Shown piece by piece: positions 18,613-34,237 of a DNA stretch of 38,962 bases; the first letter of the stretch is position 1, and each line of letters opens with the position of its first letter. A program made the position numbers and the translations under genes. Origin of the DNA: Phycisphaerales bacterium (GTDB lineage: Bacteria; Planctomycetota; Phycisphaerae; Phycisphaerales; SM1A02); assembly GCA_044352505.1 (NCBI GenBank), contig JBILDS010000001.1, forward strand, positions 1 through 38,962, written 5' to 3'. Under the pieces are notes generated by a model. That model searched no databases, had not been told where the DNA came from, and was given only the letters and a program-made list of their open reading frames with translations.

Positions 18613-18667
18613 CCGCGAGGCCACAGGAATCGCAGCAATCGTGGGCAAAGCAAACAAGGAGATCAGG

Positions 18668-21427: not shown

Positions 21428-21591
21428 GATGTTTAGTCCTTTCGAATGGTTCCCTGACAAACACTCCGCCACGCTGACGAACGTGATTGCCGTAGAAGTC
21501 AGGTGTCGACGTTCGTGGTCGTGAAGCAGCCGCTGTCAGAGATGCACACGAAGCGTGCCTTGCGCGGCGCAAACGATGCCGTGCAACCCGA

Positions 21592-22080
21592 TCAGCCTGG
21601 AAGTGGCACGCGCCGCGTCGTGGCCTTCACCTCGACTCGCTTTGCGCGCTGTCCAGGCCTTTTCGCAACGTGGATGGTGACAAGTCCGTTGTCACTCTCC
21701 GCCGAGACTCGTTCAGAGTCGACAGACTCCGGAAGCTCCACGATTCGTCGGAACCCACCGAAGCGACGTTCGCACCGGTAGAAGTCTTCCTGTTCCGTCT
21801 CTTCCTTTTCTTCCTTCTTTCCGGCAATCGAGAGGGTGTTGCCCGTGATGGTGATCTCAAGATCACGCACGGCGATTCCGGGAAGTTCGGTGCGAACCAG
21901 AATTTCATCATCGGTTTCGCTGACATCAATCGGCGGAATCCAACCGTCGATGCGTGCGGCGCCGAGTTCTGTCGACGGCATGTTCGACCCGAAGGTACGG
22001 GAGAGGAGTCGATCCATCTCATCGCGCATGCGGGTGAACTCATCAAGGACTGGGGTTCTTCGGAATAGGCTCATGTTCAT
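21592..22080 (-). CDS. Small heat-shock protein, Hsp20/alpha-crystallin family
   Basis: 162-aa ORF with ATG at 22080 preceded by GGGAGA. Alpha-crystallin core: PPIDVSETDDEILVRTELPGIAVRDLEITITGNTLSIAGKK...ERRFGGFRRIVELP...AESDNGLVTIHV. Confidence 0.9.
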   Translation of the reverse strand: MNMSLFRRTPVLDEFTRMRDEMDRLLSRTFGSNMPSTELGAARIDGWIPPIDVSETDDEILVRTELPGIAVRDLEITITGNTLSIAGKKEEKEETEQEDFYRCERRFGGFRRIVELPESVDSERVSAESDNGLVTIHVAKRPGQRAKRVEVKATTRRVPLPG

Positions 22081-22113
22081 GTTTCTCCCTTTCGTGTCTT
22101 GTGTGTGTGGCTC

Positions 22114-22134
22114 GCGAATCGCAGGTTGATTCGC
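22114..22134. promoter_or_regulatory. 7-N7-7 inverted repeat (GCGAATC-N7-GATTCGC) in the hsp20 leader/promoter region
   Basis: Read directly from the sequence, 34-54 nt upstream of the hsp20 ATG. Function unknown. Confidence 0.3.
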
Positions 22135-22228
22135 AATTGGTTTCGGTCACGTGCGTGCGTCAAGCACGGAACGTTGATGCGGCACACGAATGCCGTCATA
22201 CCGATCGTTTCGTGAGAGATGTTCGGAA

Positions 22229-22906
22229 TCAGGTGTACGGATCGACAACGAGTCGGTCATCCACGCGGCGTACGCCGGTGGCGAAGCCAACCACGCGATC
22301 AATGGTGTCCTTCTCGACCCACGATCGCACGCGACCCGTGAGCATCACAACGCCGTCTTTGACTTGGACGCCGATGCGGCGCGCCTCACGCTCGGCCTGG
22401 CGCTCAAGTGCCTCTTCAATGTCGGCCTTGATGCGACTTGAGTCGACCGCTTTGGCCATGACGGAGATCTGATTGATCACGCCCCGAACGCCCGTGAGTC
22501 CACGAACAACACGCTCTGCGTCGGCGCGCTGTGACCAAGTTGGTACCACGCCTTCCAACGTGACGATACCGAGCGAAACAGTCGATGTGATCTTCTCGTC
22601 GGGAACAAAGGCGTCCCACTCGAGCGCGTCACGCACTCCGCGCGCGATATCAATATCGGTGGGCGCGCCCACGCCGGCGACCTTGACTTGCAGTTCATCC
22701 ACGACATCGAGCACACCATGCACGCGATGCGCGGCTTCACGCGAGGCGATCTTCTTCGCGTAGACGTCAACGCTCCCGACGAGGGTCACGATGCCATCCT
22801 TGATCTGTACGCCGACATCCGTCTCGTCGACGCGGGAATCCCACTTGAGTTCATTCAACACATCGGTCTTGATCTGTGAATCGCTCTTGATGATTGCCGT
22901 TGTCAT
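22229..22906 (-). CDS. Triple BON-domain protein (OsmY-like)
   Basis: 225-aa ORF with ATG at 22906 preceded by AAGGAGG. Three repeats of the BON pattern (DVGVQIKDGIVTLVGSV...A..V.GV..V.N.L, SLGIVTLEGVV..., GVQVKDGVVMLTGRV...). Confidence 0.85.
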   Translation of the reverse strand: MTTAIIKSDSQIKTDVLNELKWDSRVDETDVGVQIKDGIVTLVGSVDVYAKKIASREAAHRVHGVLDVVDELQVKVAGVGAPTDIDIARGVRDALEWDAFVPDEKITSTVSLGIVTLEGVVPTWSQRADAERVVRGLTGVRGVINQISVMAKAVDSSRIKADIEEALERQAEREARRIGVQVKDGVVMLTGRVRSWVEKDTIDRVVGFATGVRRVDDRLVVDPYT

Positions 22907-23022
22907 GCTCTTCCTCCTTCTTTGGCATTTGAACTCTGGAGCCGCGCTCCAGACACTTCATTTGGGCAGATCGACGCACCCGCGACTACGGGGAGTGTTC
23001 CGCATTCATGGAGCAGCACAGA

Positions 23023-23967
23023 TCACGTGATGATGGCTGCGCGCACACGCTTCTCAGGAGCGACTGGTACCGCCCGTGCGGTCAGCACCGCGCACCGTGC
23101 GCGATGGAGCACTCGCTCCGCGGTCGATCCAAGCAAGAGACGCTCGAGAATCGAGACGCCATGTCGCCCAAGCGCAACCATGTCGGCGTGGAGCAGATCC
23201 GCGCGCTCCGCAACCGCGCGAAAGACATCCCCGCGCGCAATCTCTGCAGTCGTTTCTGCGCCGAGACGCCGAAACTCGGCAGCGATCGGCTCAAGTTGCT
23301 CGCGCGCGTCGTCCTCTTCGGCAACAAGCTGATCTCTTGGAATCACGGGCGACTCAACCGCTTCGATCACGTGAGGCGGAAGCACCACATGGAGCAGCGC
23401 CACGCGCGGCTGCTCACGCGAGCGGAGCGCAACCACGCGCGCTGCGGCCACAGCGGCTTCGGCATCGTGGGCAAAGTCCGTCGCCACCAAGATCCGCGGT
23501 CGTGCAGGCGGCTCATCGTTCTCTCGCACCACGAGTACAGGACACTCTGCGTGCCGCAGCACGCGATCTGCGACACTTCCCAGAAGAACACGACGAAGCG
23601 GACCGAGGCCACGGTTCCCCATCACGATGAATGGGTTCGGCGTGCGCTGCGCAACATCCTCAATCACCATGGATGGCTCACCAATACGACACTCGCGCAC
23701 CACCTCGATTCCGGCAGAGACCGCCCGCGCACACGCGCCGTGGAGTCGCTCGAGTCCGCGCGCCTCAAGCATGGCCACCAATTCCGAGCTTTCACCCAGT
23801 GGTGTGGGCTCAACGGCATGAACCGCAATCAGACGACCCGGTCCACGCGCAGCAAGTTCCTCTGCCCAACGCAACGCAGCCAACGCGGGCTTTGAGAAGT
23901 CGATTGGAACGATAAAGTTGACGGTGTGATGCTCACCGACCGCCGTGGGTGGCTCTTGTTCCCGCAT
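23023..23967 (-). CDS. Tandem universal stress protein (two UspA domains)
   Basis: I take the ATG at 23967 preceded by GGAGA. Two Usp modules, each ending in the ATP-binding-type motif (MGNRGLGPLRRVLLGSVADRVLRHAECPVLVV and LGRHGVSILERLLLGSTAERVLHRARCAVLT). Confidence 0.85.
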   Translation of the reverse strand: MREQEPPTAVGEHHTVNFIVPIDFSKPALAALRWAEELAARGPGRLIAVHAVEPTPLGESSELVAMLEARGLERLHGACARAVSAGIEVVRECRIGEPSMVIEDVAQRTPNPFIVMGNRGLGPLRRVLLGSVADRVLRHAECPVLVVRENDEPPARPRILVATDFAHDAEAAVAAARVVALRSREQPRVALLHVVLPPHVIEAVESPVIPRDQLVAEEDDAREQLEPIAAEFRRLGAETTAEIARGDVFRAVAERADLLHADMVALGRHGVSILERLLLGSTAERVLHRARCAVLTARAVPVAPEKRVRAAIIT

Positions 23968-24117
23968 GCAATTCTCCAAACAATGACGCTTGACGCCGGT
24001 GCGCGCGAGGATGCCTGAACACCAGCTGTGTCCTGCGACCATTGATAGTTTCGCACCTGCGAGAGAGGCATGACTACGGGAACTTGCCTCAATCGGGTGT
24101 GCAAGATCGACGCGCCT

Positions 24118-24146
24118 CGGGGATCTATCAGACAGAACCTAGGTTC
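24118..24146. repeat. Second copy of the recurrent motif (cggggatctatCAGACAGAACCT), abutting the palindrome GAACCTAGGTTC
   Basis: 21/23 identity to 4063-4085. Lies in the divergent usp / DUF883 intergenic region. Confidence 0.6.
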
Positions 24147-24317
24147 GCCACGCGCTTCTGTCACGCCAACTGCGAATACTTCCCTCTGGCAACAGCGCAT
24201 GTGACCGCCATTGATTGGTTGCATGCCGGCTGGGCAACCATCGAATGCTGAACGAAGCGCACGGCGCGCTTCGCACCGCGACTGACCACGTGCCCAGCGT
24301 GCAATGGGAGAACCGAC

Positions 24318-24608
24318 ATGGATCGCAACAGTCAAATCGGAATGGAAGATTCACTTGACCTCCAACGAGAGCTCGACCGGCTGCGCGCCGATCTCCGGCA
24401 ATTGCGCAACGACCTCTCCGGTCTCGGAATCGATGGCGTGAGAGCCGCCCGTGCAGGGCTACAAGAGACTGCGCGAACCGCTGCCGCAAAGGGCAAAGCG
24501 GCAGCGGAAGTCGCCGAGAAGCAGATTGCAGCACATCCCTTTCTGACCGTCGCGTCGTGCCTCGCCATCGGTGTGCTGCTTGGCCTTCGGATGAACCGGC
24601 GCGATTAG
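24318..24608 (+). CDS. DUF883 family protein (YqjD/ElaB-like membrane-anchored stress protein)
   Basis: 96-aa ORF with ATG at 24318 preceded by GGGAGA. Coiled-coil N-terminus (LQRELDRLRADLRQLRNDL) and a C-terminal anchor (HPFLTVASCLAIGVLLGL), as in YqjD/ElaB. Confidence 0.75.
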   Translation: MDRNSQIGMEDSLDLQRELDRLRADLRQLRNDLSGLGIDGVRAARAGLQETARTAAAKGKAAAEVAEKQIAAHPFLTVASCLAIGVLLGLRMNRRD

Positions 24609-24623
24609 GTCCTGTCTGACGGA
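24607..24623. repeat. Third copy of the recurrent motif (AGGTCCTGTCTGACGGA)
   Basis: 16/17 identity to the reverse complement of 4069-4085. Overlaps the DUF883 stop codon and the Shine-Dalgarno region of the next gene. Confidence 0.5.
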
Positions 24624-24630
24624 GACTCGA

Positions 24631-24909
24631 ATGGGAATCATGCAGCAACTGCTTGCCGATATCACCGCGGCACTTGATTGGGAGTTCCGCGCCCTTCGTA
24701 TGCGCGCACTTCGGATTGCATGGGGAGCCGCGCTTGCCGTGGTTTCTGCAATGCTCGTTCTCACTTCGGTGCTTCTCTTCTTGGGGGCGGTGTACCTACA
24801 GGTTGAGACCGCCATGGGCGCTGTGGCGGGACTTCTGGCCACCGCAGCCTTCGCCGTGCTCTGCGCACTTGGGGCAGGACTGGCGGCGAAGACCCTAGCG
24901 GAGCGGTAG
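24631..24909 (+). CDS. Small two-TM membrane protein, YqjE/DUF1469-like ('phage holin family' annotation class)
   Basis: 92-aa ORF with ATG at 24631 preceded by GGAGA. Two hydrophobic helices after an amphipathic N-terminus. Sits directly after a YqjD-like gene, mirroring E. coli yqjD-yqjE. Family assignment rests on size, topology and synteny only. Confidence 0.55.
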   Translation: MGIMQQLLADITAALDWEFRALRMRALRIAWGAALAVVSAMLVLTSVLLFLGAVYLQVETAMGAVAGLLATAAFAVLCALGAGLAAKTLAER

Positions 24910-24930
24910 CGAACGAGGGTTGGATGCCGG

Positions 24931-25100
24931 GATTCGGACTTCCGCCCTCGATTCAAACTCTCGATTCAAACTCTCGATTCAAACTCTCGATTCAAGCCCT
25001 CGATTCAGGCTCTCGATTCAAGCCCTGAATTCAAGCCCTGAATTCAAGCCCTGAATTCAAGCCCTGAATTCAAGCCCTGGATTCGGATCCCGGATCCGGG
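24931..25100. repeat. 13-bp-period tandem repeat array, about 12 units in three sub-variants
   Basis: gattcaaactctc x3 (24950-24988); then gattcaagccctc, gattcaggctctc and gattcaagccct (24989-25026); then gaattcaagccct x4 (25027-25078). Degenerate ggattcgga-type units flank both ends. Non-coding period (13 is not a multiple of 3). Confidence 0.95.
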
Positions 25101-25177
25101 CAAAGGACCGCCAATCTCCGTCACAGTCCCTTGGGGGCGACGAGGGGGTCAGGACTGGCATCTCCCACCCCCGGGAC

Positions 25178-25200
25178 GAGGTTCTGTCAGGCGGAACCTC
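25178..25200. repeat. Degenerate palindromic copy of the recurrent motif (GAGGTTCtgtcaggcgGAACCTC)
   Basis: AGGTTCTGTCAG differs at one position from the 12-mer. 7-N9-7 palindrome located 146 nt upstream of the SET gene ATG. Confidence 0.45.
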
Positions 25201-25345
25201 GTGCTCGGATTGTCGAACGCGACACCTGCACATTCGAAGTGCGATCGCGTACGCTGCCGCGCTGCCATGGGCCGACCCATGGCGGCGACGCGGATCTCCG
25301 ACACCGATCCCGAACGTCGCGAGTCGTCCTGCGTCTCCCCCATCC

Positions 25346-25837
25346 ATGCCTGCCACAACTCAATCGTTTCCCTGCGCCGTGCGCCAAACAACCACGGGCG
25401 TTGGCGTCTTCGCAACACACGACATCATCGAAGGCGGAATCGTGCTCGAAATCAACGGCACGATCCAGCAGCATCCAACGCGCTACTCGATTCAGATCAG
25501 TCTCAACGAGCACATTGAGTGCCATGAGGTACTCAGCGTTGACGAGATGCGCGTGCGCTTCCCGTGGCGGTTCTTGAATCACTGCTGCGAACCAAACGCT
25601 GCGATTGTCGGGCGCACACTTGTCGCGCGCCGACTCATCCGTGCAGGCGAGCAGGTCACCTTCGACTACACCACAACCGAAGCTGCCATGGCGGAACCAT
25701 TCCGCTGCGGCTGCGGAGCCGAGCGATGCCTCGGCGAGGTTCGCGGGTTCCTTGCGCTCTCTCCCGCCGAGCAGCGGGCGCGCGCTGAGATTGTTGCGCC
25801 GCACATCAAGTCGTTCCTTCCAAAGACGAACGCGTGA
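25346..25837 (+). CDS. SET-domain protein (putative lysine N-methyltransferase)
   Basis: 163-aa ORF. SET signatures: GVGVFA, RFLNHCCEPN, EQVTFDY. Post-SET-like Cys cluster FRCGCGAERC. Its TGA stop overlaps the GTG start of the downstream synthetase. Confidence 0.85.
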   Translation: MPATTQSFPCAVRQTTTGVGVFATHDIIEGGIVLEINGTIQQHPTRYSIQISLNEHIECHEVLSVDEMRVRFPWRFLNHCCEPNAAIVGRTLVARRLIRAGEQVTFDYTTTEAAMAEPFRCGCGAERCLGEVRGFLALSPAEQRARAEIVAPHIKSFLPKTNA

Positions 25838-28800
25838 ACTCCGCCGCGAATGCGCGGCTGGTTGTGATGCTCGCCGCCCCCCCAGTCACCGTGCTCGACC
25901 TCTTCGACCGCGCCTGTGCGGCCGAACGCGATGCATGTGCGCTTGATGTGCCCGGCGTTGCGCAGCTTTCCTACCGAGAACTCGACGAGCGCGCGCAGCG
26001 CGTCGCGACCTGCGTGGCGCCGCATGCAGCGCGCGATGCTGTTGTCGCGATCGCACTTCCACGCACCGATCCATGGCTCTATGCCGCGATTCTCGGTGTG
26101 ATGCGTTCGGGCGCAGCGTATGTCGCCATCGACCCCGCGTTTCCCTCGCGACAAGCCGTAGCGATTCTGAGAGATGCAGGCGCAGTTGCACTGATTGCGA
26201 ATCCCGCGCGCGCCGCAGAACTTGCTGCGGAAGGCGCACGCGTTGCACTTCTGTCGCCTGAGCACATTGCAACATCGAACGTGCACAACGCCGTCGCAGT
26301 GCGAAATGCTCCATCGCCCGACGACCTCGCCTATGTGATCTACACGTCAGGTACAACGGGAAAGCCCAAGGGTGTAGAGATCGAGCACCGCTCGCTCCTC
26401 AACCTCGTCGAGGGTGATCTTGCCGAATTCGGCCTTGCAGCCGGCGACCGCGTGGCGCAGGGTTCGAGCGCAAGCTACGACTCGAGCGTCGAGGAGATGT
26501 GGCTTGCGTGGGCGGCGGGTGCCGCCGTTGTCGTGATGGACGATGAGACGGCACGACTTGGGCCAGACCTGCTGCCATGGCTTGTGCGCGAGCGCATCAG
26601 CGTGCTCTGCCCACCGCCAACCTTGCTGCGCACGCTCGGCTGTAGCGACCCCGAACGCGCGTTGCCTGCGATTCGTCTCCTCTATGTGGGCGGAGAGGCG
26701 CTCGCGCCCGACGTTGCGTCGCTTTGGTCGCGCGGTCGTAGACTCGAGAACGGTTACGGCCCGACCGAATGCACCGTGACTTGTCTGCGCGCCACGGTGC
26801 GCGCGGGTGAAGCGGTCACGATTGGTCGCGCAATTCCAGGTTCGTTCGCAGCGGTCGTCGACCCGGACGACGCGAACCTGCGCGAGATCATCGACGAAAC
26901 CCAGGGCGAGCTCGTGGTCGGCGGCGCGTCGCTTGCGCGCGGCTATCGCGGCCAGCCCGAGACCACCGCTGCGCGCTTCGTCGAGCACCCGACGCTTGGC
27001 CGCGTGTATCGCACGGGCGATCTCGTCCACCGCGATTCTCGCGGCGAGTTCCACTACCACGGTCGCATCGACGCGCAGGTGAAGCTGCGCGGCTATCGCA
27101 TCGAACTCGGCGCGGTCGAAGCAGCGCTGGCGGCGCAGCCCGGCGTACTTGACGCGGCCTGTACGGTGGAAGGCGAAGGAGCGCAGCGAAGGCTTGTGGC
27201 GCACGTGGTGGCGCACGCAGGGCACGCGCTCAACAGAGATGTGCTGCGCGCAGCACTCGCGCGGGAGCTGCCGCCCTATATGGTTCCGTCGGCGATCGCA
27301 GCAATCGAGCGCATCCCACGCACGGTCGGCGGAAAGATCGACCGGCGCGCGCTTCCTGCAATCGACACGCGGCGCGAGCCCGACCATGCCACAGCGCATG
27401 CACACCCATCGACCGAGACAGAGCTCCAACTGGCGCGCGCGTTCGCGGCTGCGCTTGGGAGAGATGACACTGTTTCGATCGACGCGGATCTATTCGACGA
27501 CCTCGGCTTCGACTCGCTCACGATCGCGATCGCGATCTCGCGCCTCCGCGCCGCGCACGCGGAGTCTGCCGCGACCGTGCGCACGGCCTACGAGCACCGC
27601 ACGGTACGCGCGCTGGCGGCTGCACTCGACGCGGCGCGCGCCGTCGCCACGCACACGGCACCAGACCGCGCTCACGCCCACCCCGTGACGGGCACTTCGC
27701 GGCCGATCCTTGTCACCACGCTTCAAGCCGCATTCCTCGCGGCGGCCCTTGTCGTCGTGTCGCAGTTCCTGTGGATTCCCGCTGCTGTCGACGCACTGGA
27801 AAGCGCATTCGACAGCGGCATCCACAGCGCACTGCTGCTTGCTCTCTCCGCCGCGGTCGTCACCGCCGGATACCCGCTCGTCGCGGTCGCCTTCGGCGTC
27901 GCAGCGAAGTGGATCGTCCTCGGTCGTGTGAAACCGGGCCGTGTCCGCGCATGGAGCCTCACGCACCTTCGACAGTGGATCGCGGTGCGCTGCGTGGCAC
28001 CGATTCCGTGGGAGACACTGAAGGTCCTCGACCTCGCGCCTACGGTGCTCAGGCTTCTCGGGGCACAGGTTGGCCGCGGCGTCCACATCCATCGCGGCGC
28101 CCGCTTCAACGACGGCGGTTGGGATCTGATCACGCTCGAAAGTGGCGCGACCGTCGGACAGGACGCGTGCCTTCGCGCCGTAGAACTGACAGCGGGCACG
28201 CTGGTCTTCGATCGCGTGACGGTGCGCAGAAACGCCACGCTCGAAACACGCGCCGGCATGTCGCCCGGCGCGGAACTTGGCGAAGGCAGCATCCTGCGCG
28301 CACTCTCGAGCCTTGGGCACGGTGAGGTGCACGAGCACGCGATCCTCGACGGCGTACCCGCACGGCGCATTGCACGCGCACCTGAGCCGCCCACGGTCGC
28401 AGCCCCGCCGCACGCCGCGCTGCGACTTATCGCGGCGCTCGCGCTCATTGCGTTGCTCGCCACGGCGCTCGTCATTCCGTGGACCGCGGCGCTCTGGCTC
28501 TTCGGCGTGTCGCCCGATGCACTGGATCTCTCGCCCGCCAACCTCGCGCGCCTCGCTGGTGCCACCATCGCAGCCGCTGCTGGCGCAGTGCTCATACAAG
28601 CAGCTCTCGTGCGCGCGCTCGGGCCAGCGCCGCGCGGAGCGTTTTCGCTGCACGGCCTCGCGCCGCTGCGGCTTTCACTTCAATCGATGCTCGTCGAAGG
28701 CGCGGGCAAATGGCTCTCGGGCACCATCATGTGGCCGATGTGGCTCAACCTCGCGGGCGCCCGCATCGGAAAATGCTGCGAGATTTCCACCGTCACCGAT

Positions 28801-29802
28801 GTGGTGCCATCGACAGTCGCGATCGACGAAGACACCTTCTTCGCGGATGGAATCTATCTCGGCGGACCCGCGCTCCACGCCGGAACAGCCACGATCGAGC
28901 CGGTCGAGCTCGGGCGCTCCTGCTTCGTCGGCAACCACGCGGTTCTCCCCTCTGGCTCACGGCTCGCGCCCGAGACGCTTGTTGGCATCTCGACGCGCGG
29001 AAGTGGCCTTCCCGACGAAGCGGGCGCGTCGTGGTTCGGCCACCCCGTGTTTCGCCTGCCGCGACGCGAGGTCGTCGACGCCCCGCGCGAACTCACGCAC
29101 GATCCGTCGCTTGTTCGCCGCATCAACCGCTGGGTGTGGGAGCTTGCGCGCTTCGCACTGCCGCTCGGCCCGATCATTGTGGCGCTCCTCTGGTTCCGCG
29201 CGATGGAAGCCGCAAGCGCCACGCAGACGCCCGCGCTCTTCCGCCTCGTCACGCTTCCTCTCGGCGTCCTCGCGGCGCTCGCCTCGCTCGCGGCAGCCCT
29301 CCTCGCGATGAAGTGGATCCTCGTCGGGCGCGTCAAGCCGGGCACGCATCCCCTGTGGAGTTGCTGGTGCAGCCGTTGGGACTTCCTCTACGTCGCGTGG
29401 GGCATGTGGGCCGCGAAACCGCTCGCAGCGCTCGAAGGCACGCTCCTCCTCGTTGTCTATCTGCGCGCGATGGGGTGCCGCATCGGACGGCGCGCACTTC
29501 TCGGCGCAGGCTTCTCGCATGTGGTCGACCCGGACATGCTGCGATTCGGCAACGATGTCACGGTGCAGGCGCTCTTTCAGGCCCATACCTTTGAGGATCG
29601 CGTGCTCAAGATCGACCATGTCCACATCCGTGACGGCGCGACGGTGGGCGCGAACACGGTGATCCTCTATGGCGCGGACATTGGTACTGGTGCCGTCGTC
29701 GCACCGCACTCCGTGGTGATGAAGCGGGAGTTGCTCCTTCCCCGCACGCGCTACGAAGGTGTACCGACCGAACCTGTCGGCACGGTCACACCCGCACACT
29801 GA
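25834..29802 (+). CDS. Pls-type single-module non-ribosomal peptide synthetase (A-PCP, six TM helices, three tandem soluble domains); predicted homopoly(amino acid) synthetase
   Basis: 1322-aa ORF with GTG start at 25834. A-domain motifs: YVIYTSGTTGKPKG, NGYGPTE, YRTGDL, GRIDAQVKLRGYRIELGAVE, GGKIDRRAL. PCP motif LGFDSL (Ser561, nt 27514-27516). Three pairs of hydrophobic helices each precede a soluble ~150-aa segment, and the motif KWIVLGRVKPG / KWILVGRVKPG repeats. No HHxxxDG condensation motif and no thioesterase motif seen. Confidence 0.85.
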   Translation: MNSAANARLVVMLAAPPVTVLDLFDRACAAERDACALDVPGVAQLSYRELDERAQRVATCVAPHAARDAVVAIALPRTDPWLYAAILGVMRSGAAYVAIDPAFPSRQAVAILRDAGAVALIANPARAAELAAEGARVALLSPEHIATSNVHNAVAVRNAPSPDDLAYVIYTSGTTGKPKGVEIEHRSLLNLVEGDLAEFGLAAGDRVAQGSSASYDSSVEEMWLAWAAGAAVVVMDDETARLGPDLLPWLVRERISVLCPPPTLLRTLGCSDPERALPAIRLLYVGGEALAPDVASLWSRGRRLENGYGPTECTVTCLRATVRAGEAVTIGRAIPGSFAAVVDPDDANLREIIDETQGELVVGGASLARGYRGQPETTAARFVEHPTLGRVYRTGDLVHRDSRGEFHYHGRIDAQVKLRGYRIELGAVEAALAAQPGVLDAACTVEGEGAQRRLVAHVVAHAGHALNRDVLRAALARELPPYMVPSAIAAIERIPRTVGGKIDRRALPAIDTRREPDHATAHAHPSTETELQLARAFAAALGRDDTVSIDADLFDDLGFDSLTIAIAISRLRAAHAESAATVRTAYEHRTVRALAAALDAARAVATHTAPDRAHAHPVTGTSRPILVTTLQAAFLAAALVVVSQFLWIPAAVDALESAFDSGIHSALLLALSAAVVTAGYPLVAVAFGVAAKWIVLGRVKPGRVRAWSLTHLRQWIAVRCVAPIPWETLKVLDLAPTVLRLLGAQVGRGVHIHRGARFNDGGWDLITLESGATVGQDACLRAVELTAGTLVFDRVTVRRNATLETRAGMSPGAELGEGSILRALSSLGHGEVHEHAILDGVPARRIARAPEPPTVAAPPHAALRLIAALALIALLATALVIPWTAALWLFGVSPDALDLSPANLARLAGATIAAAAGAVLIQAALVRALGPAPRGAFSLHGLAPLRLSLQSMLVEGAGKWLSGTIMWPMWLNLAGARIGKCCEISTVTDVVPSTVAIDEDTFFADGIYLGGPALHAGTATIEPVELGRSCFVGNHAVLPSGSRLAPETLVGISTRGSGLPDEAGASWFGHPVFRLPRREVVDAPRELTHDPSLVRRINRWVWELARFALPLGPIIVALLWFRAMEAASATQTPALFRLVTLPLGVLAALASLAAALLAMKWILVGRVKPGTHPLWSCWCSRWDFLYVAWGMWAAKPLAALEGTLLLVVYLRAMGCRIGRRALLGAGFSHVVDPDMLRFGNDVTVQALFQAHTFEDRVLKIDHVHIRDGATVGANTVILYGADIGTGAVVAPHSVVMKRELLLPRTRYEGVPTEPVGTVTPAH

Positions 29803-32029
29803 ACGCGCCGCTGCGCAGCCGCAGGCTGTTCGCCACCACGCTCACGCTCGAGAGCGCCATCGCGGCGCTCGCAGCGATCGGCGGAAGCATCCAGCCCGTC
29901 CACGGGTAGAGCGCACCCGCCGCGAGCGGAATGAGGACGAGGTTGTAGCCGAACGCCCACGCGAGGTTCTGGCGAATCACGCGTAGCGTGGCGCGAGAGA
30001 GCGCGATCACCTCGGGAACGCGCCGAAGGTCGTCGGAGACGAGCAGAATGTCGGCGCTTGTCTTCGCGAAATCGGTGCCGCTCGCCATTGCGATCCCGGG
30101 CCGCGCTGCGGCGAGCGCGGCCGCGTCGTTGATGCCGTCGCCGACGAACGCCGCGCCGCGCGGCTCTTCGACGAGTCGCGAGACGAGTTCGGCCTTGCCC
30201 GCAGGCGTCATCGACGCATGCACGGAAGCCGCGTCGATGCGAAGCGCCTCCGCCACCGCCGCGGCAGGGCGCTCCGCGTCGCCCGTCACGAGCAACGGCT
30301 CGACGCAGAGCGCGCGCAGCGCGTCGACCGCCTCCCGCGCATCGGCACGCACGCGGTCCTCGAGCGCGATCGAGCCGACGAACGCGCCGTCGGCCGCGAC
30401 GAAGACGCGCGTGGCGTTCGATGCGCCGGCGTGCGCACCCACCGTCACGCCGCATTCGCGTATCCATGCCGCGTTTCCCACCTCGACTGAATGTGAAAGC
30501 ACGGTTGCATGCACGCCCTTCCCGGCGAACGCTGTGAACGACGATGGCTCCTCGACATGGATCCCGCGCGCGCGCGCAGCGTCAACGATGCCGCGCGCGA
30601 CCGCGTGCTCGCTGCGGATCTCGGCGGCCGCCGCCAGCCCGAGCAACGCCTCCTCGCTCCAGCCATGCGCGGGCGCGACGGCGGTCACCGCGGGGCGCCC
30701 TTCCGTGAGTGTGCCCGTCTTGTCGAACGCAATACGCCCGACCCGCGCGAGGAGCTCGAACGCGTTTGCGCGGCGGAAGAGGACGCCGAGCGCGGCCGCG
30801 CGCCCCGACGCGACCATGATCGCCACGGGTGTCGCGAGGCCGAGCGCGCACGGGCACGCGACCACGAGCACGCTGACGAGCGCTTCGACGGCGCGCGCGT
30901 GGCGAATGTCGGCGGGCGCAAGCAGCAGCCACGCCGCGAACGCGCCGAGCGCGACCACAAGCACGACGGGAACGAACACGGCGGCAACGCGGTCCGCCGT
31001 GCGCGCGATCGACGCCTTGGTCGACTGCGCCTCATCGACGAGCCCCGCGATCCGAGCGAGCATCGTCTCGTCTGCGCCACAGCCCGCCTCGATTTCGAGC
31101 GCGCCGACCGTGTTCAGCGACCCTGCGAAGACGCGGTCGCCCGTTCGGCGCAGGCGCGGCATCGGCTCGCCCGTCAGAAGCGACTCGTCGACCTCGCTCT
31201 CGCCGCGTATCACGGTGCCGTCGATCGGAATGCGCTCGCCCGGCCGCACGACGACATGCATGCCAACCGTGATCTCGGCGGCCGTGATCTCCCGTTCGGC
31301 GCCATCGGCGCGAATACGCGCCATCGGAACGGCCGCAGTCGACAGCGCGCGCAACGCGTCGCCTGCGCGTGCCGTCGCGCGCGCCTCGAGTAGGCGGCCG
31401 AATAAGACGAACACGAGGATCACGGCCGCGGCCTCGAAGGTGAGGGCGTGTCCCGCGTGTTGCGAGTGCCCCGCGAAGAGCGCCCACGTGCTCGATGCGA
31501 AGGCCACGCTCGTTCCGAGCGAGACAAGCGTGTTCATGTCGGCGTCGAAGGTCTTCAGCCGCGCGAGCGCCGCCGCGTGGATCGGCCAGCCGCACCAGAG
31601 ATAGACGGGCGTGGCGAGCGCAAGCTGCACCCACGGCATCGCGGGGCCATCGAGCGCGGGAATGGCGCCGTGCGACATGGCGATTACAACCAGCGGAAGC
31701 GACAGCACGGCGCCGACCACCACGCGCAGCCGAAGCAACCGCGCCTCGGCCACCTCGCGTGCGGCGCGCACCGCGGGGTCGCGCGTGATGTCGAGTGCGA
31801 ATCCCGCGCGCTCAACCGCCCGCGCAAGGCCGGCGAGGTCGACCGCACTGCGGTCGAAGTCGATGCGCGCACGCTTCGTCGCAAACGACACGCTCGCCGC
31901 GCGCACACCCTCGACCGCGCACAGCGCGCGCTCGACCTTCGACGCGCACGCGGCGCAATGCATGCGGTCGACAGGCAGCACGCGCACGGTGGCGTCGTGA
32001 ATCTTCGCAGCTGCCGCCGCGCTCGCCAT
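29786..32029 (-). CDS. copA: Copper-translocating P1B-type ATPase
   Basis: HMA domain (MHCAACASKVERAL), TGE, CPC motif (VACPCALGLATP), DKTGTLT, GDGINDA. I take the ATG at 32029, 5 nt after the thioredoxin stop. The ORF-track start at 32107 would overlap that gene. Confidence 0.9.
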   Translation of the reverse strand: MASAAAAAKIHDATVRVLPVDRMHCAACASKVERALCAVEGVRAASVSFATKRARIDFDRSAVDLAGLARAVERAGFALDITRDPAVRAAREVAEARLLRLRVVVGAVLSLPLVVIAMSHGAIPALDGPAMPWVQLALATPVYLWCGWPIHAAALARLKTFDADMNTLVSLGTSVAFASSTWALFAGHSQHAGHALTFEAAAVILVFVLFGRLLEARATARAGDALRALSTAAVPMARIRADGAEREITAAEITVGMHVVVRPGERIPIDGTVIRGESEVDESLLTGEPMPRLRRTGDRVFAGSLNTVGALEIEAGCGADETMLARIAGLVDEAQSTKASIARTADRVAAVFVPVVLVVALGAFAAWLLLAPADIRHARAVEALVSVLVVACPCALGLATPVAIMVASGRAAALGVLFRRANAFELLARVGRIAFDKTGTLTEGRPAVTAVAPAHGWSEEALLGLAAAAEIRSEHAVARGIVDAARARGIHVEEPSSFTAFAGKGVHATVLSHSVEVGNAAWIRECGVTVGAHAGASNATRVFVAADGAFVGSIALEDRVRADAREAVDALRALCVEPLLVTGDAERPAAAVAEALRIDAASVHASMTPAGKAELVSRLVEEPRGAAFVGDGINDAAALAAARPGIAMASGTDFAKTSADILLVSDDLRRVPEVIALSRATLRVIRQNLAWAFGYNLVLIPLAAGALYPWTGWMLPPIAASAAMALSSVSVVANSLRLRSGAFSVRV

Positions 32030-32034
32030 CGCGC

Positions 32035-32382
32035 TCAGCCGCCGATCTTTCCGACATGCTGCTCGAGCCGTGCCTTCACGGCGGCGCGCGGCATGAAGCC
32101 CGTCCACGAGTCGATCACCTCGCCGTTCTTCATCAAGAAGAGCGCTGGAATGCCGCGCACGCCGAACGCAGCGGCGACCTCGCCCTCAGCGTCGACATCG
32201 CAGAACGCCACGCGCACTTTGCCCTCGAGCTCGGGTGCAAGCGCCGCGAGCTCTGGCTTGAGCATGCGGCACGGTGGGCACCACGACGCCCAGAAGTCGA
32301 CAAGGACAGGCACGGACGATTGGGCGACTTCCTTGTCGAAGTTCGCGCTGGTGGCATGGAACGTGTTGGGAGCGTCAGACAT
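32035..32382 (-). CDS. Thioredoxin with non-canonical WCPPC active site
   Basis: Internal ATG at 32382 gives 115 aa: NFDKEV...VPVLVDFWASWCPPCRML...VRGIPALFLMKNGEV. Typical thioredoxin fold length. The ORF-track upstream extension is not thioredoxin-like. Confidence 0.85.
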   Translation of the reverse strand: MSDAPNTFHATSANFDKEVAQSSVPVLVDFWASWCPPCRMLKPELAALAPELEGKVRVAFCDVDAEGEVAAAFGVRGIPALFLMKNGEVIDSWTGFMPRAAVKARLEQHVGKIGG

Positions 32383-32714
32383 GGAGCCTCGCTTTGGGTG
32401 GTTGTCGCAAGTGCATGCGGCAGGTGGACGCCGCAGGTTGGAGCCGCACGGTACGCGCACGGCGCAGGTTGCGCGGCCTTTGAGGGGTCGCAGGTGGCCT
32501 CGCGTTCCCAATTCCGGCGTCCGAGAAGTCAAGGGGACGGGGAGTTCCACGCGCAAATCGAACCGACAACGCTGTTTGCATGCGCTGTGGGGAACGGTAC
32601 ACTCCCCGATCTTTCGCCAATTCTCTTCGCCCTCGGTTGCCGCGCGCTGCGGAACACTCGGGCGGGGCATTCCCCGGGCAACCAGGCCGGGAAAATAGGA
32701 AGGTCAGGTCGAGC

Positions 32715-32942
32715 ATGAAGAAGGACACCCATCCGAAGTACTACCCCGACTGCAAGGTCATGTTCCGCGGGGAAGTTGTCATGACTGTCGGCGCCACGGT
32801 GCCCGAGATGAATGTCGAAATCTGGTCAGGCTCGCACCCGTTCTTCACGGGTCAGAAGACCTTCGTCGACACCCTCGGCCGCGTCGAGCGCTTCCAGAAG
32901 AAGTTCGCGGGCAACTACTTCGACAAGAACAAGAAGAAGTAA
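32715..32942 (+). CDS. rpmE: 50S ribosomal protein L31
   Basis: Internal ATG at 32715. 75 aa: MKKDTHPKYY...VEIWSGSHPFFTGQKTFVDTLGRVERFQKKF. Confidence 0.9.
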   Translation: MKKDTHPKYYPDCKVMFRGEVVMTVGATVPEMNVEIWSGSHPFFTGQKTFVDTLGRVERFQKKFAGNYFDKNKKK

Positions 32943-32978
32943 TCCCAAGAAGAAGGGGTTCATTGAATCGATTTCGCC

Positions 32979-33013
32979 AAGCAGCCGTCGGAAAGACGGC
33001 TGCTTGTCTTTTT
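32979..33013 (+). terminator. Rho-independent terminator after rpmE
   Basis: Stem aagcagccgtc / gacggctgctt with loop ggaaa, followed by gtcttttt. Confidence 0.85.
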
Positions 33014-33055
33014 GTCTCGCCCGGCCACCCGCCCCACCCGCTACCCCGACATCGC

Positions 33056-33075
33056 TGCACGGCACGTGCCGTGCA
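33056..33075. promoter_or_regulatory. Perfect 20-bp palindrome TGCACGGCAC|GTGCCGTGCA in the prfA leader/promoter region
   Basis: Read directly from the sequence, 17-23 nt upstream of the candidate GTG starts of prfA. Function unknown. Confidence 0.35.
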
Positions 33076-33097
33076 CCGGTCTTACCATGGGGTGACT

Positions 33098-34210
33098 GTG
33101 TCTGCCTCGCCTGCTGCAACTGCTTTCGTTGACGCGCTTCTCCCCGAGAACCTGCGCCGCATCCTCGCGGCACAGCGCGCCGAGGACGACGGCGTCGCAG
33201 CGCAGCTCGAGGATGTCGCCGTCGCCGCCGACCACCGCAAGTCGACAGCGCTCTCGCGGCGCCGCGCGGTGCTCGCCCGCACGCTCGAGCCCCACGCCGA
33301 CCTCGCGCGCGCCGCCACCGAAGTCGCCGGCCTCGACGAACTCATCGCCTCGGGCGACCCCGAGATGGCAGCGCTTGCGAAGACCGAGCGCCCCGCCCTC
33401 GACGCGCGCTGCCGCGAGCTCGCGCAGGAAATCGTCAAGGCGCTCGTCACGAGCGACGAGGCAGCGATCCCGAGCTTCGTGCTCGAGGTCCGCATGGGCG
33501 TCGGCGGCGACGAGGCCGCGCTCTGGGCGGGTGAAGTCTTCGAGATGTACCGCGCCTACGCCGCGCGCCGAGGGTGGCGCTTCGAGGTGGTCGAGACGAA
33601 GCCGGGCGACGCGGGCGGCCTCACCCACGCGATCGCCACGGTCGAGGGCGCGGGCGCGTTCGCAGCGCTCCAGTTCGAGGGCGGCACCCATCAGGTGAAG
33701 CGCGTGCCCGCGACCGAAGCGCAAGGCCGCATCCACACCTCGACCGCGACCGTCGCCGTGATGCCGGAGCCCGAAGAGGTCGACACGGCGCTCGACCCGG
33801 CGGAAGTGAAGGAGATGATGACGACCGCGCAGGGCCCGGGCGGGCAGAATGTGAACAAGGTCGCCACCGCGGTGCACCTCATCCACCTGCCGACGGGCCT
33901 CGAGGTCCGCATGCAGGAGACGCGTTCGCAGGGCCAGAACCGCGAGAAGGCGTGGCGCCTGCTGCGCGCGCGCGTCTACGAGCAGCGCAAGCGCGAGGCC
34001 GACCTGAAGCGCGCCACCGAGCGTCGCTCGATGATCGGCTCCGGCGACCGGGCCGAGAAGATCCGCACCTACCGCTTCAAGGAATCGGTCGCGGTCGACC
34101 ACCGCGTCGAGCAGAGCTTCGCGCTGCCGAAGCTGCTCGCGGGCGAACTCGACCCGCTCATCGACGCGCTCGCCGCGAAGGATGTCGCAGAGCGCCTCGC
34201 TGCGCTGTGA
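33098..34210 (+). CDS. prfA: Peptide chain release factor 1
   Basis: RF1 signatures: LEVRMGVGGDEAALWAGEVFEMY, the PAT tripeptide in VKRVPATEAQGRIHTS, GGQ motif (GPGGQNVNK), and SGDRAEKIRTYRF. The start is uncertain: in-frame GTG at 33098 (preceded by GGGGTGA) or GTG at 33092. The ORF-track TTG at 32963 lies upstream of the rpmE terminator and is rejected. Confidence 0.85.
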   Translation: MSASPAATAFVDALLPENLRRILAAQRAEDDGVAAQLEDVAVAADHRKSTALSRRRAVLARTLEPHADLARAATEVAGLDELIASGDPEMAALAKTERPALDARCRELAQEIVKALVTSDEAAIPSFVLEVRMGVGGDEAALWAGEVFEMYRAYAARRGWRFEVVETKPGDAGGLTHAIATVEGAGAFAALQFEGGTHQVKRVPATEAQGRIHTSTATVAVMPEPEEVDTALDPAEVKEMMTTAQGPGGQNVNKVATAVHLIHLPTGLEVRMQETRSQGQNREKAWRLLRARVYEQRKREADLKRATERRSMIGSGDRAEKIRTYRFKESVAVDHRVEQSFALPKLLAGELDPLIDALAAKDVAERLAAL

Positions 34211-34237
34211 CGCACGCCCGCCCTGGCCCCGCGCCGC

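What the first reader, a model, noticed from the sequence alone, without database searches (positions are those of the whole stretch)
25834..29802. Pls-type membrane NRPS: a predicted template-independent homopoly(amino acid) synthetase in an unusual genomic background
Seen:
- A 1322-aa ORF with a complete adenylation domain (YVIYTSGTTGKPKG, NGYGPTE, YRTGDL, GRIDAQVKLRGYRIELGAVE, GGKIDRRAL).
- One PCP (LGFDSL, Ser561 at nt 27514-27516).
- No recognisable condensation (HHxxxDG) or thioesterase domain.
- Instead, aa ~625-1322 form three units, each of two hydrophobic helices plus a ~150-aa soluble segment.
- The first and third soluble segments open with nearly the same motif (KWIVLGRVKPG / KWILVGRVKPG). 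The middle one opens KWLSGTIMWPMW.

Established: this A-T-(TM2-C)x3 layout and size match what was described for epsilon-poly-L-lysine synthetase Pls of Streptomyces albulus (Yamanaka et al. 2008) and its relatives that make other cationic homopolymers (poly-Dap, poly-Dab).

Inference:
- The product is likely a secreted cationic homopolymer.
- My hand alignment to the GrsA specificity positions gives D216 S217 E220 C259 Y284 G286 G307 V315 T316 K501 (DSECYGGVTK).
- The alpha-amino-binding Asp is kept and the 239-equivalent is acidic, as in Lys-type codes I recall (DAE...).
- The remainder matches no code I know, so the monomer is open.
- No PPTase, MbtH or polymer hydrolase gene is in the window.
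Basis: partly seen in the sequence, partly recalled or inferred. Interest (0 to 1): 0.8.

Follow-up and report, generated by a model that had tools for sequence, protein, structure and literature searches.

The report
Pls-like membrane synthetase with methyltransferase partner
This gene encodes a membrane-bound enzyme built like the bacterial polylysine synthetases, but it belongs to a widespread untested branch that is paired with a small methyltransferase gene, so it probably makes an unknown, possibly methylated, positively charged amino-acid chain.

Summary
ORF 25834-29802 (+) encodes 1322 aa: a complete adenylation domain, one carrier domain (Ser561), and no C or TE domain. Three homologous units follow, each two membrane helices plus a left-handed beta-helix segment.

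It is also published. Patel & Gulick 2023 tested a same-code A domain, which ignored Dap, Dab, Orn and Lys and weakly activated L-Arg.

The protein belongs to a discrete clade:
- At least 405 species genomes carry it, and the 80 loci fetched come from about five phyla.
- The pocket is nearly invariant.
- The C-terminal domain scores below the curated Pls/PosA cut-off (330-384 bits against 423). Lys-, beta-Lys-, Orn- and Dap-type relatives score 555-643.

It is a 163-aa SET methyltransferase overlapping the synthetase start by 4 nt.
- This pairing recurs in Planctomycetota, Actinomycetota and Verrucomicrobiota, and it is the only neighbour shared across phyla.
- Its closest solved relative, by sequence and by fold, is BurB, which methylates free methionine to feed a thiotemplate line.
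- Some loci carry two or three methyltransferase genes.

Likely product: a cationic oligomer or polymer whose monomer or chain is methylated. This is unproven. I rate it a new variant of a known kind, moderately interesting.

The parts
25346..25837 (+). SET-domain SAM methyltransferase gene (163 aa), first gene of the operon. Its TGA stop overlaps the GTG start of the synthetase by 4 nt.
   Evidence: Pfam SET, 41.6 bits. The NH.C.PN motif, the FDY tyrosine and the post-SET C.C....C cysteines are invariant. AF2 pLDDT 92. The best PDB match by sequence (E 7.9e-8) and by fold (E 3.4e-10, TM 0.65) is BurB. The junction was read directly.
25834..29802 (+). Pls/PosA-type single-module membrane NRPS-like synthetase, 1322 aa, DSECYGGVTK clade.
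25903..27336 (+). Adenylation domain (aa 24-501), including K501 of motif A10.
   Evidence: Pfam AMP-binding and AMP-binding_C. TIGR01733 scores 367 bits, above its cut-off.
26479..26781 (+). Stretch holding specificity-pocket residues D216 S217 E220 C259 Y284 G286 G307 V315 T316. Code DSECYGGVTK with K501.
   Evidence: Positions verified. Alignments to GrsA, Pls and PosA. The code is found in 77 of 79 loci and in 30 of 32 clade representatives.
27430..27627 (+). Carrier (PCP) domain, aa 533-598. Ser561 (nt 27514-27516) in LGFDSL is the phosphopantetheine attachment site.
   Evidence: Pfam PP-binding, 39 bits
27700..27906 (+). Membrane helix pair 1 (aa about 623-691).
   Evidence: Hydropathy. 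AF2 helices 4-26 and 43-76 of the model. The loop is acidic and the post-TM2 stretch is K/R-rich.
27907..28398 (+). Soluble unit 1 (C1): short helices plus a left-handed beta-helix.
   Evidence: AF2, Foldseek to hexapeptide acyltransferases, internal repeat
28399..28623 (+). Membrane helix pair 2 (aa about 856-930).
28624..29133 (+). Soluble unit 2 (C2), the most divergent repeat.
   Evidence: weak LpxD-type matches at aa 988-1046
29134..29313 (+). Membrane helix pair 3 (aa about 1101-1160).
29314..29799 (+). Soluble unit 3 (C3). It opens with the clade-specific HPLWSCWCSRWDFLYVAW motif and holds a Hexapep repeat at aa 1262-1295.
   Evidence: Pfam Hexapep, 44.9 bits. The motif served as the scan pattern and found 405 genomes.

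Best explanation
What it is: an intact two-gene operon.

Gene 2 is a membrane-anchored, single-module NRPS-like enzyme with the Pls/PosA architecture. It belongs to a separate, widespread clade defined by the near-invariant A-domain pocket DSECYGGVTK.

Proposed mechanism for gene 2:
1. The A domain adenylates a cationic alpha-amino acid. Asp216 binds the alpha-amine and Glu220 binds the side-chain cation. The side chain is about the size of arginine's. This step is inferred from the pocket and from the published assay of a same-code A domain, which was weakly active on L-Arg and inactive on Dap, Dab, Orn and Lys.
2. The aminoacyl group is thioesterified on the phosphopantetheine of Ser561 (inferred from the motifs).
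3. The three cytoplasm-facing beta-helix units, sitting on six membrane helices, act as the acyltransferase. They pass the aminoacyl group repeatedly to a free monomer or oligomer, giving a short cationic chain that is released outside. This step is inferred only by analogy with Pls and PosA.

Gene 1 is a small BurB-like SET methyltransferase, translationally coupled to gene 2. I think it most likely methylates a free amino acid to supply the monomer. My favoured case is Lys to N-epsilon-methylated lysine, which is arginine-sized, cationic and poor in hydrogen-bond donors, like the pocket. Methylation of the finished chain is nearly as likely.

Shown here: the architecture, the clade, the operon and the SET-BurB similarity. 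Inferred: the substrate, polymerisation, and when methylation happens.
For: Architecture:
- Domains, TM pairs, repeats and fold.
- The positive-inside pattern puts the beta-helix units on the same side as the A and T domains.

Clade:
- The code is identical in 77 of 79 loci spanning Planctomycetota, Acidobacteriota, Actinomycetota, Verrucomicrobiota and sphingomonads.
- Among exhaustive-search representatives, the code switches to Lys, beta-Lys, Orn or Dap types as C-terminal similarity falls below about 330 bits, with one outlier, P0358.
- The published same-code A domain prefers L-Arg over the diamino acids.

Operon:
- The stop and start codons overlap by 4 nt.
- SET lies directly upstream on the same strand in 50 loci from three or more phyla, within otherwise unrelated contexts.
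- It is the only neighbour cluster shared across phyla.
- SET and synthetase identities co-vary (rho 0.83).
- In the reverse test, 47 of 61 metagenomic SET loci have the synthetase start immediately downstream. Four more have a further methyltransferase gene before the contig ends.
- Extra methyltransferases: a class-I MTase sits directly upstream of SET in 17 Planctomycetota loci and elsewhere in one more. Tandem SET genes occur in L022, L102, L103 and L105.

SET acting on a free amino acid:
- BurB is the top PDB hit by both sequence and fold.
- BurB methylates free L-Met and feeds a thiotemplate assembly line.
Against: - No product has ever been shown for this clade. The only assay is of an isolated A domain from a different phylum and gave only modest activity.
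- The A-domain pocket, including a shell of about 34 positions, is the same in 46 SET-linked and 25 SET-less loci. No A-T column discriminates the two groups.
- All Blastocatellia and sphingomonad loci lack an adjacent SET and have unrelated upstream genes. Either the monomer does not need SET, or SET is encoded elsewhere in those genomes.
- SET identity to BurB is only about 26%. Histone-lysine methyltransferases follow closely (E 1e-8 to 1e-6).
- The C-terminal domain falls below the curated family cut-off, so its chemistry may differ from Pls.
- Di- or trimethyl-lysine could not form isopeptide bonds.
Confidence: 0.5

Rival explanations
1. The monomer is plain L-arginine, or another primary metabolite, in all lineages. 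The synthetase is self-sufficient, like pls and posA. SET, and the extra methyltransferases where present, are lineage-specific accessories that methylate the finished chain or act in immunity or regulation.
For: - The same-code A domain activates L-Arg.
- The pocket and its shell are identical in SET-linked and SET-less loci.
- SET is absent next to the gene in all Blastocatellia and sphingomonad loci, and was lost next to close relatives (L032-L034, L046, L081).
- Other lineages have different partners: a Beta-lactamase2 hydrolase in Blastocatellia, and an acyltransferase-3-type fusion in others.
Against: - Activity on Arg was only modest. The authors themselves doubted that Arg is chemically suited to polymerisation and proposed a larger analogue.
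- A SET enzyme has no obvious target on an arginine chain.
- Tight translational coupling with SET first, and up to three methyltransferase genes ahead of the synthetase, look more like precursor supply.
- Unlinked SET loci of this type exist, so SET-less loci may be served in trans.
Confidence: 0.28
2. SET is a true functional equivalent of BurB. It makes S-methylmethionine from methionine, and the synthetase loads this sulfonium amino acid.
For: - BurB is the nearest solved relative by sequence and by fold. The two share the DY-x-(S/T)TE...F.C.CG...C motif and the same loop length.
- The pocket has an acidic residue and a tyrosine but lacks the hydrogen-bonding Thr and Ser seen in PosA, which would suit an onium cation.
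Against: - The sulfonium sits only three atoms from C-alpha, as in Dab. Short-chain pockets in this family carry Phe at position 2, whereas this pocket has Ser and accepts the long Arg.
- Identity to BurB is only 26%. BurB has Met where this subfamily has an invariant Phe before the DY.
- S-methylmethionine has no side-chain nucleophile.
Confidence: 0.08
3. It is not a polymerase. The enzyme transfers a single cationic aminoacyl group from its carrier domain to a membrane or envelope acceptor (a lipid head group or a glycan), in the manner of the Dlt or MprF systems.
For: - The whole clade scores below the curated Pls/PosA equivalog cut-off, while all characterised substrate types score above it.
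- Four clade members are fused at the C-terminus to an HGSNAT_cat/DUF418/Acyl_transf_3 membrane domain. As I recall, that family transfers acyl groups across membranes to extracytoplasmic acceptors.
- The beta-helix fold is that of acyl-carrier-dependent acyltransferases such as LpxA and LpxD.
Against: - The full three-unit architecture, with end-to-end alignment to the Pls/PosA model, is retained.
- The fusion is present in a minority only.
- No acceptor-synthesis genes are conserved nearby.
Confidence: 0.1
4. It is an ordinary epsilon-poly-L-lysine synthetase (a Pls orthologue), or a decayed or non-functional gene.
For: It has the same domain order and a similar length to Pls.
Against: - The pocket differs from the Lys code DAESIGTVVK at six of ten positions.
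- C-terminal identity to Lys-type relatives is about 30%.
- The same-code A domain is inactive on Lys.
- The reading frame is intact and all clade-invariant residues are kept.
Confidence: 0.02

Closest known systems
Epsilon-poly-L-lysine synthetase Pls of Streptomyces albulus (Yamanaka et al. 2008; A-domain structure 7WEW)
   Same: - Same order of A domain, carrier domain, six membrane helices in three pairs and three tandem soluble units.
- No C or TE domain.
- The pocket segment is the best PDB match (E 3.7e-22).
- Asp at position 1 and Glu at position 3 of the code are kept.
   Different: - The code is DSECYGGVTK against DAESIGTVVK.
- The C-terminal domain is about 30% identical to Lys-type relatives and falls below the curated family cut-off.
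- It is paired with a SET methyltransferase, whereas PosA is described as a single-gene operon and I recall the same for pls.
- The same-code A domain does not activate Lys.
Delta-poly-L-ornithine synthetase PosA of Acinetobacter baumannii (Patel & Gulick 2023, PMC10522769)
   Same: - Same architecture.
- The published AlphaFold model shows three five-turn left-handed beta-helices packed on six bent helices, which matches my model.
   Different: - The PosA code is DMEHNGTVSK, with Thr and Ser hydrogen-bonding the amine. Here these positions are Gly and Thr, and position 5 is Tyr.
- An Orn-type representative scores 643 bits on TIGR02353 against 330 here.
Uncharacterised homologs from a Bdellovibrionales bacterium (OFZ39577.1) and Novosphingobium sp. 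(WP_072382105.1), listed in the same paper
   Same: Identical specificity code DSECYGGVTK. These are the only members of this clade mentioned in the literature I could search.
   Different: - Different phyla.
- Only the isolated Bdellovibrionales A domain was assayed.
- No product, gene neighbourhood or SET partner was reported.
- I could not retrieve their loci.
BurB/BurA of Burkholderia thailandensis (Trottmann et al. 2020, PMC7496086; Zhang et al. 2025, PMC12542666; structures 9L4T and 9L4V)
   Same: - A small stand-alone bacterial SET methyltransferase (172 aa there, 163 aa here) encoded with a thiotemplate enzyme whose A domain takes a cationic building block.
- BurB is the closest solved relative of this SET by sequence and by fold.
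   Different: - About 26% identity.
- BurB S-methylates methionine. Its product is further processed to DMSP before loading on a PKS-NRPS whose A domain lacks Asp235.
- Here Asp is kept, so an alpha-amino acid is loaded, and the partner is a Pls-type membrane enzyme.

Membership tests
Pls/PosA family of cationic homopoly(amino acid) synthetases (NCBIfam TIGR02353) | A single N-terminal adenylation domain that keeps the alpha-amine-binding Asp and has an acidic residue at code position 3 | tested here: met
   D216 and E220. TIGR01733 scores 367 bits, above its cut-off.
Pls/PosA family of cationic homopoly(amino acid) synthetases (NCBIfam TIGR02353) | One carrier domain, and no condensation or thioesterase domain | tested here: met
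   PP-binding at aa 533-598 with Ser561. No Condensation or Thioesterase hit at E<=0.01.
Pls/PosA family of cationic homopoly(amino acid) synthetases (NCBIfam TIGR02353) | A C-terminal domain of about 700 aa with six membrane helices in three pairs, separating three mutually homologous soluble units | tested here: met
   Hydropathy; internal repeats with E from 9e-12 to 4e-3; AF2 pLDDT 84, pTM 0.87
Pls/PosA family of cationic homopoly(amino acid) synthetases (NCBIfam TIGR02353) | The soluble units adopt the left-handed beta-helix (hexapeptide acyltransferase) fold, as modelled for PosA | tested here: met
   Pfam Hexapep. PDB sequence hits. Foldseek hits only to CysE, maltose and galactoside acetyltransferases, AntD and gamma-carbonic anhydrases.
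Pls/PosA family of cationic homopoly(amino acid) synthetases (NCBIfam TIGR02353) | A score at or above the curated cut-off of the family model (423.1 bits) | tested here: not met
   The window protein scores 329.9 bits, with full-length alignment and E 3e-98. Clade members P0091, P0094 and P0075 score 369-384. Lys-, beta-Lys-, Orn- and Dap-type representatives score 555-643.
Pls/PosA family of cationic homopoly(amino acid) synthetases (NCBIfam TIGR02353) | Activates a diamino acid and releases an isopeptide-linked homopolymer | not testable with these tools
   The only data come from the literature. A same-code A domain was inactive on Dap, Dab, Orn and Lys and modestly active on L-Arg. No product is known.
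BurB-type SET methyltransferases acting on a free amino acid | A SET fold with the SAM-binding NH motif, the catalytic-site Tyr and the post-SET cysteine cluster | tested here: met
   H79, C81, Y108, C121, C123 and C128 are invariant. AF2 pLDDT 92.
BurB-type SET methyltransferases acting on a free amino acid | Closer to BurB than to protein-lysine methyltransferases | tested here: inconclusive
   BurB is the top hit by sequence (E 7.9e-8 against 4.5e-7 for the next) and by fold (3.4e-10 against 1.4e-8). Identity is only about 26% and the margins are small.
BurB-type SET methyltransferases acting on a free amino acid | Methylates free L-methionine, or another free amino acid | not testable with these tools
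   BurB binds its substrate through main-chain atoms, so the sequence gives no diagnostic residues.
Canonical modular NRPS | A condensation domain (HHxxxDG) for peptide-bond formation and a TE or R release domain | tested here: not met
   Neither was found by Pfam or NCBIfam.

The most novel reading that the evidence does not exclude
The SET enzyme, helped in some lineages by a second SET and a class-I methyltransferase, converts a free amino acid into a permanently or strongly cationic methylated monomer. N-epsilon-methylated lysine is the most likely candidate. The DSECYGGVTK-clade synthetase then polymerises this monomer specifically. The result would be a previously unknown class of natural methylated polycationic poly(amino acid), made across Planctomycetota, Actinomycetota and Verrucomicrobiota. 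It would also be only the second SET methyltransferase known to feed a thiotemplate enzyme.
Probability: 0.3. Interest if true: 0.8.

Novelty: new variant of a known kind. Interest (0 to 1): 0.6.

Why it matters
All characterised Pls-type enzymes make antimicrobial polycations from plain diamino acids, and PosA at least is a stand-alone gene. They are used as food preservatives and studied for delivery into cells.

This locus represents a large sister clade, found in hundreds of species that include cultivable Amycolatopsis and Lentzea. Its product is unknown, and its one tested A domain rejects every known monomer.

The conserved coupling to a BurB-like SET methyltransferase gives a concrete and cheap experimental handle. 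That handle is to test methylated lysines, S-methylmethionine and arginine analogues on the A domain, and to co-express the two genes.

If the methylation link holds, it would add a new polymer chemistry. It would also broaden the very short list of SET enzymes in secondary metabolism. If it does not hold, the clade remains an ordinary uncharacterised branch of a known family.

Tried and rejected
1. Comparing the window A domain with the codon-optimised Bdello_A DNA from the paper's supplement. The machine-read text has many indels, so tblastn and blastx gave only fragmented matches of 30-40% identity and no usable figure.
2. PDB entry 8WWW, the best stand-alone A-domain hit. No paper was found, and it is not close in the pocket segment. 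I dropped it.
3. A solved full-length Pls-type structure. None exists in the PDB copy, by sequence or by fold.
4. Literature linking SET domains to Pls-type or NAPAA clusters, or describing a poly-arginine-type synthetase. Nothing was found.
5. Other conserved partners such as a PPTase, MbtH, hydrolase or precursor enzymes. Neighbour clustering found only SET shared across phyla. Genes upstream of SET-less loci are unrelated to each other.
6. A-T residues that co-vary with SET presence. None exist.
7. More distant SET homologs, at 44% identity or less, and ten metagenomic SET loci at 39-48% identity. These lie in other contexts, so the link is specific to one SET subfamily.
8. Whether SET-less genomes carry the SET elsewhere. 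No Blastocatellia or Sphingomonas names appear in the top 120 of 1064 SET hits, which is inconclusive.
9. A class-I methyltransferase or DUF1275 remnant in the window. None was found.
Full report
**Observation.** The window holds an uninterrupted ORF at 25834..29802 (+), GTG start, 1322 aa.
- Pfam finds AMP-binding (aa 24-371), AMP-binding_C (428-501), PP-binding (533-598) and a Hexapep repeat (1262-1295). It finds no condensation or thioesterase domain.
- NCBIfam TIGR01733 (amino acid adenylation) scores 367 bits, above its cut-off.
- Hydropathy gives six hydrophobic segments in three pairs.
- The three units are detectably homologous: U1 vs U3 E 9e-12, U2 vs U3 2e-4, U1 vs U2 4e-3.
- An AlphaFold2 model of aa 621-1322, built on 42 sequences, is confident (pLDDT 84.2, pTM 0.87). 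It shows three repeats of two long helices, short helices and a beta-helix.
- Foldseek against the PDB returns only left-handed beta-helix acyltransferases and gamma-carbonic anhydrases. No full-length Pls-type structure is available.
- K/R-rich stretches after TM2 and TM6, and acidic TM1-2 and TM3-4 loops, place the beta-helix units on the cytoplasmic side with the A and T domains.

**Family placement.**
- The NCBIfam model 'Pls/PosA family non-ribosomal peptide synthetase' (TIGR02353) aligns over profile positions 11-694 of 695 with E 3e-98. The score of 329.9 bits is below the curated cut-off of 423.1.
- This is a property of the whole clade, not decay of this gene. Relatives from Gandjariella, a 3-Mb JGI metagenome contig (probably a sphingomonad) and Blastocatellia score 369-384. 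Representatives with Lys, beta-Lys, Orn and Dap-like pockets score 555, 558, 643 and 584.
- An exhaustive HMMER search of 1.84 billion representatives with the C-terminal domain gives 2570 hits at E<=1e-3 and 360 at E<=1e-30.
- I extracted the specificity code from the 71 full-length proteins in the top 150. Apart from P0358, every one whose C-terminal score is about 330 bits or more carries DSECYGGVTK (30 cases) or DSEMYGGV[TV]K (2 cases). A few truncated clade members score lower and also carry it. P0358 carries DFEALGTVTK.
- Below about 330 bits the codes are mostly DAESIGTVVK (identical to Pls 7WEW), DGESISVVNK (beta-Lys), DMEHNGTVTK (Orn type) or DFE... (Dap/Dab type).
- The pocket and the membrane domain have therefore diverged together. 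The window protein belongs to a discrete sister clade of all characterised members.

**Specificity code.**
- HMMER alignments of aa 195-338 to GrsA (1amu), Pls (7wew, the best hit, E 3.7e-22) and PosA (8g95-98) confirm DSECYGGVTK. Read the same way, they give DAESIGTVVK for Pls and the published DMEHNGTVSK for PosA.
In fact Patel & Gulick (Commun Biol 2023, PMC10522769) list exactly this code for a Bdellovibrionales bacterium (OFZ39577.1) and a Novosphingobium sp..
- They expressed the Bdellovibrionales A domain. It showed no preference for the four known diamino substrates and 'modest' activation of L-arginine. The authors suggested that the real substrate is a larger analogue suited to polymerisation.
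- I found no later work on this clade.

**Distribution.**
- The closest homologs, at 59-88% identity, come almost entirely from Planctomycetota and Phycisphaerales metagenome-assembled genomes, many from freshwater samples, judging by isolate names. Several carry implausible genus labels. The window therefore comes from a member of that group.
- A scan of one genome per species found 405 genomes with the clade motif H[PA]LWSCWC / WD[FY][LV]YVAW. Of these I fetched 80 loci.
- The fetched loci also include Blastocatellia, Amycolatopsis, Lentzea, Kutzneria, Actinoplanes, Streptomyces, Verrucomicrobiota and sphingomonads, at 43-48% identity.
- The code is DSECYGGVTK in 77 of 79 loci.
- The genomic background is therefore not unusual for this clade.

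**The missed partner.**
- Directly upstream, 25346..25837 (+), is a 163-aa SET-domain protein (Pfam 41.6 bits). Its TGA stop overlaps the GTG start of the synthetase (GTGA).
- The same arrangement is found in Planctomycetota relatives at 61-80% identity. It is also found in the actinomycete Gandjariella thermophila, where every other neighbour differs.
- An HMM search of all ORFs in the fetched loci found the SET gene in 50 loci, always on the same strand immediately upstream. This covers nearly all Planctomycetota, every actinomycete with upstream sequence, three of four Verrucomicrobiota, and L074.
- It is absent next to all Blastocatellia and sphingomonad genes, and next to L032-L034, L046 and L081. 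In those loci the upstream genes are unrelated to one another.
- Clustering of all flanking ORFs shows SET to be the only neighbour shared between phyla.
- SET and synthetase pairwise identities co-vary (Spearman 0.83).
- In the reverse direction, 61 SET loci from JGI metagenomes have at least 400 nt downstream, and 47 of them have the synthetase start right after SET. Four more have another methyltransferase gene before the contig ends: a second SET in L102, L103 and L105, and a class-I enzyme in L112. Ten, with SET at only 39-48% identity, have other genes.
- More distant SET proteins are not linked to the synthetase.
- Seventeen Planctomycetota loci carry an additional class-I SAM methyltransferase directly upstream of SET, and an eighteenth (L036) has it downstream on the opposite strand.
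- L022 reads methyltransferase-SET-SET'-synthetase on one strand, and both SET copies keep the catalytic motifs.
- The window and its closest relatives have only the one SET.

**What the SET resembles.**
- The subfamily keeps the NH.C.PN motif, the FDY tyrosine and the post-SET C.C....C cluster. It also has its own invariant TTE..MAEPF loop.
- Its AlphaFold2 model is very confident (pLDDT 92.3).
- The best PDB match is BurB of Burkholderia thailandensis, both by sequence (E 7.9e-8) and by fold (E 3.4e-10, TM 0.65). Histone-lysine methyltransferases follow closely.
- BurB is a 172-aa SET enzyme that S-methylates free L-methionine (PMC12542666). This is the first step toward a cationic starter unit that an A domain loads onto a thiotemplate assembly line. 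It was described as a rare prokaryotic SET enzyme in secondary metabolism (PMC7496086).
- There is thus one precedent for a small SET enzyme that prepares a charged building block for an adenylating enzyme.
- The profile search finds 1064 members of the subfamily. Named members include Amycolatopsis mediterranei, Lentzea, Actinoplanes, Kibdelosporangium, Planosporangium and Opitutus.
- I found no paper linking SET domains to Pls-type synthetases.

**Mechanism.** Three things are shown here:
- an intact A-T-membrane acyltransferase enzyme;
- a conserved pocket for a cationic alpha-amino acid;
- an operon with a methyltransferase.

The following points are inferred:
- The pocket keeps Asp and Glu but replaces the hydrogen-bonding Thr of PosA with Gly. 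It also has Tyr at position 5 and Ser at the chain-length position. This fits a long side chain ending in a bulky cation with few hydrogen-bond donors.
- Arginine fits partly. N-epsilon-methylated lysines fit as well, and they are what a SET enzyme classically makes.
- From my own recollection of the Phe/Tyr-switch literature, the invariant Phe106 before the DY would allow multiple methylations.
- I therefore favour SET supplying a methylated monomer, followed by Pls-like iterative aminoacyl transfer.

The main counter-evidence is that the pocket, including about 34 shell positions, is the same in 46 SET-linked and 25 SET-less loci, and no A-T column separates the two groups. So either SET-less genomes encode the enzyme elsewhere, or the monomer is a common metabolite such as arginine and SET tailors the product. 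I could not decide between these two readings.

A third reading is single aminoacyl transfer to an envelope acceptor. Two results keep it alive. The clade lies below the equivalog cut-off. Four clade members also carry a C-terminal HGSNAT_cat/DUF418/Acyl_transf_3 fusion, and one of them also has SET upstream.

**Verdict.** The finding is real and the architectural reading is right. It is not a member of the curated Pls/PosA equivalog. It is a representative of a large, previously noticed but uncharacterised sister clade. The new element is the conserved coupling to a BurB-like SET methyltransferase. I rate it a new variant of a known kind, interest 0.6.

Noticed in passing
window 18641-20689 (+): A 682-aa protein fuses a protein-L-isoaspartate O-methyltransferase domain (PCMT, 196 bits) to an erythromycin-esterase domain (418 bits). 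This is an unusual combination.
   Followed up: no
window 20900-24042 (- strand): A run of stress-type genes (DUF892, Hsp20, BON and a tandem Usp) lies upstream of the SET-synthetase operon. The run is syntenic in Planctomycetota relatives.
   Followed up: partly
window about 24042-25346: Relatives have a divergent DUF1275 gene between Usp and SET. The window's gap is about 900 nt shorter and has no tblastn match to it, so the gene appears to be deleted here. The overlapping minus-strand ORFs there have no Pfam hit.
   Followed up: partly
window 29786-32107 (- strand): A convergent copper-type P-type ATPase (HMA, E1-E2 ATPase, hydrolase) overlaps the synthetase 3' end by 17 nt and is followed by a thioredoxin. 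In sphingomonad loci a cation-efflux (CDF) gene sits upstream of the synthetase instead. The link to metal transporters may be coincidence.
   Followed up: no
window 1-25000 vs 26000-38962: G+C content steps from about 0.60-0.63 to 0.67-0.72 at about the start of the synthetase. Synteny with relatives argues against recent transfer.
   Followed up: no
L076 4658-5704, L045 5549-6481, and also L042, L065, L077, L039: In Blastocatellia a secreted class-A beta-lactamase-family protein (PF13354, about 200 bits) lies downstream of the SET-less synthetase in six loci, directly after it in five. It may be a product hydrolase or an immunity gene.
   Followed up: partly
P0316, P0327, P0337, P0343; L091 5001-10187: Clade members of about 1700 aa carry a C-terminal HGSNAT_cat/DUF418/Acyl_transf_3 membrane domain fused to the synthetase. 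The three I could code keep DSECYGGVTK, and P0327 has SET upstream.
   Followed up: partly
L022 2829-9118; L102, L103, L105, L112: Some Planctomycetota operons hold three methyltransferase genes (a class-I enzyme, SET and a paralogous SET') ahead of the synthetase.
   Followed up: partly
P0358: One representative has a clade-like C-terminal domain (434 bits) but a Dap-type pocket, DFEALGTVTK. This may reflect an A-domain swap.
   Followed up: no
L008, L021, L028, L033, L034, L055, L081 record titles: Several MAG records that carry Planctomycetota-, Blastocatellia- or Verrucomicrobia-like copies are titled Klebsiella, Limnohabitans, Kuenenia, Chitinophaga, Heliomicrobium or Akkermansia muciniphila. 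These are probably binning or naming errors.
   Followed up: no
L133 3774-4403, L137 421-1050, L145 1900-2529: A more distant SET branch (44-47% identity to the window SET) is followed by a 210-aa ORF of the same length at the same spacing in all three loci, instead of the synthetase. The L133 copy has no Pfam match.
   Followed up: no
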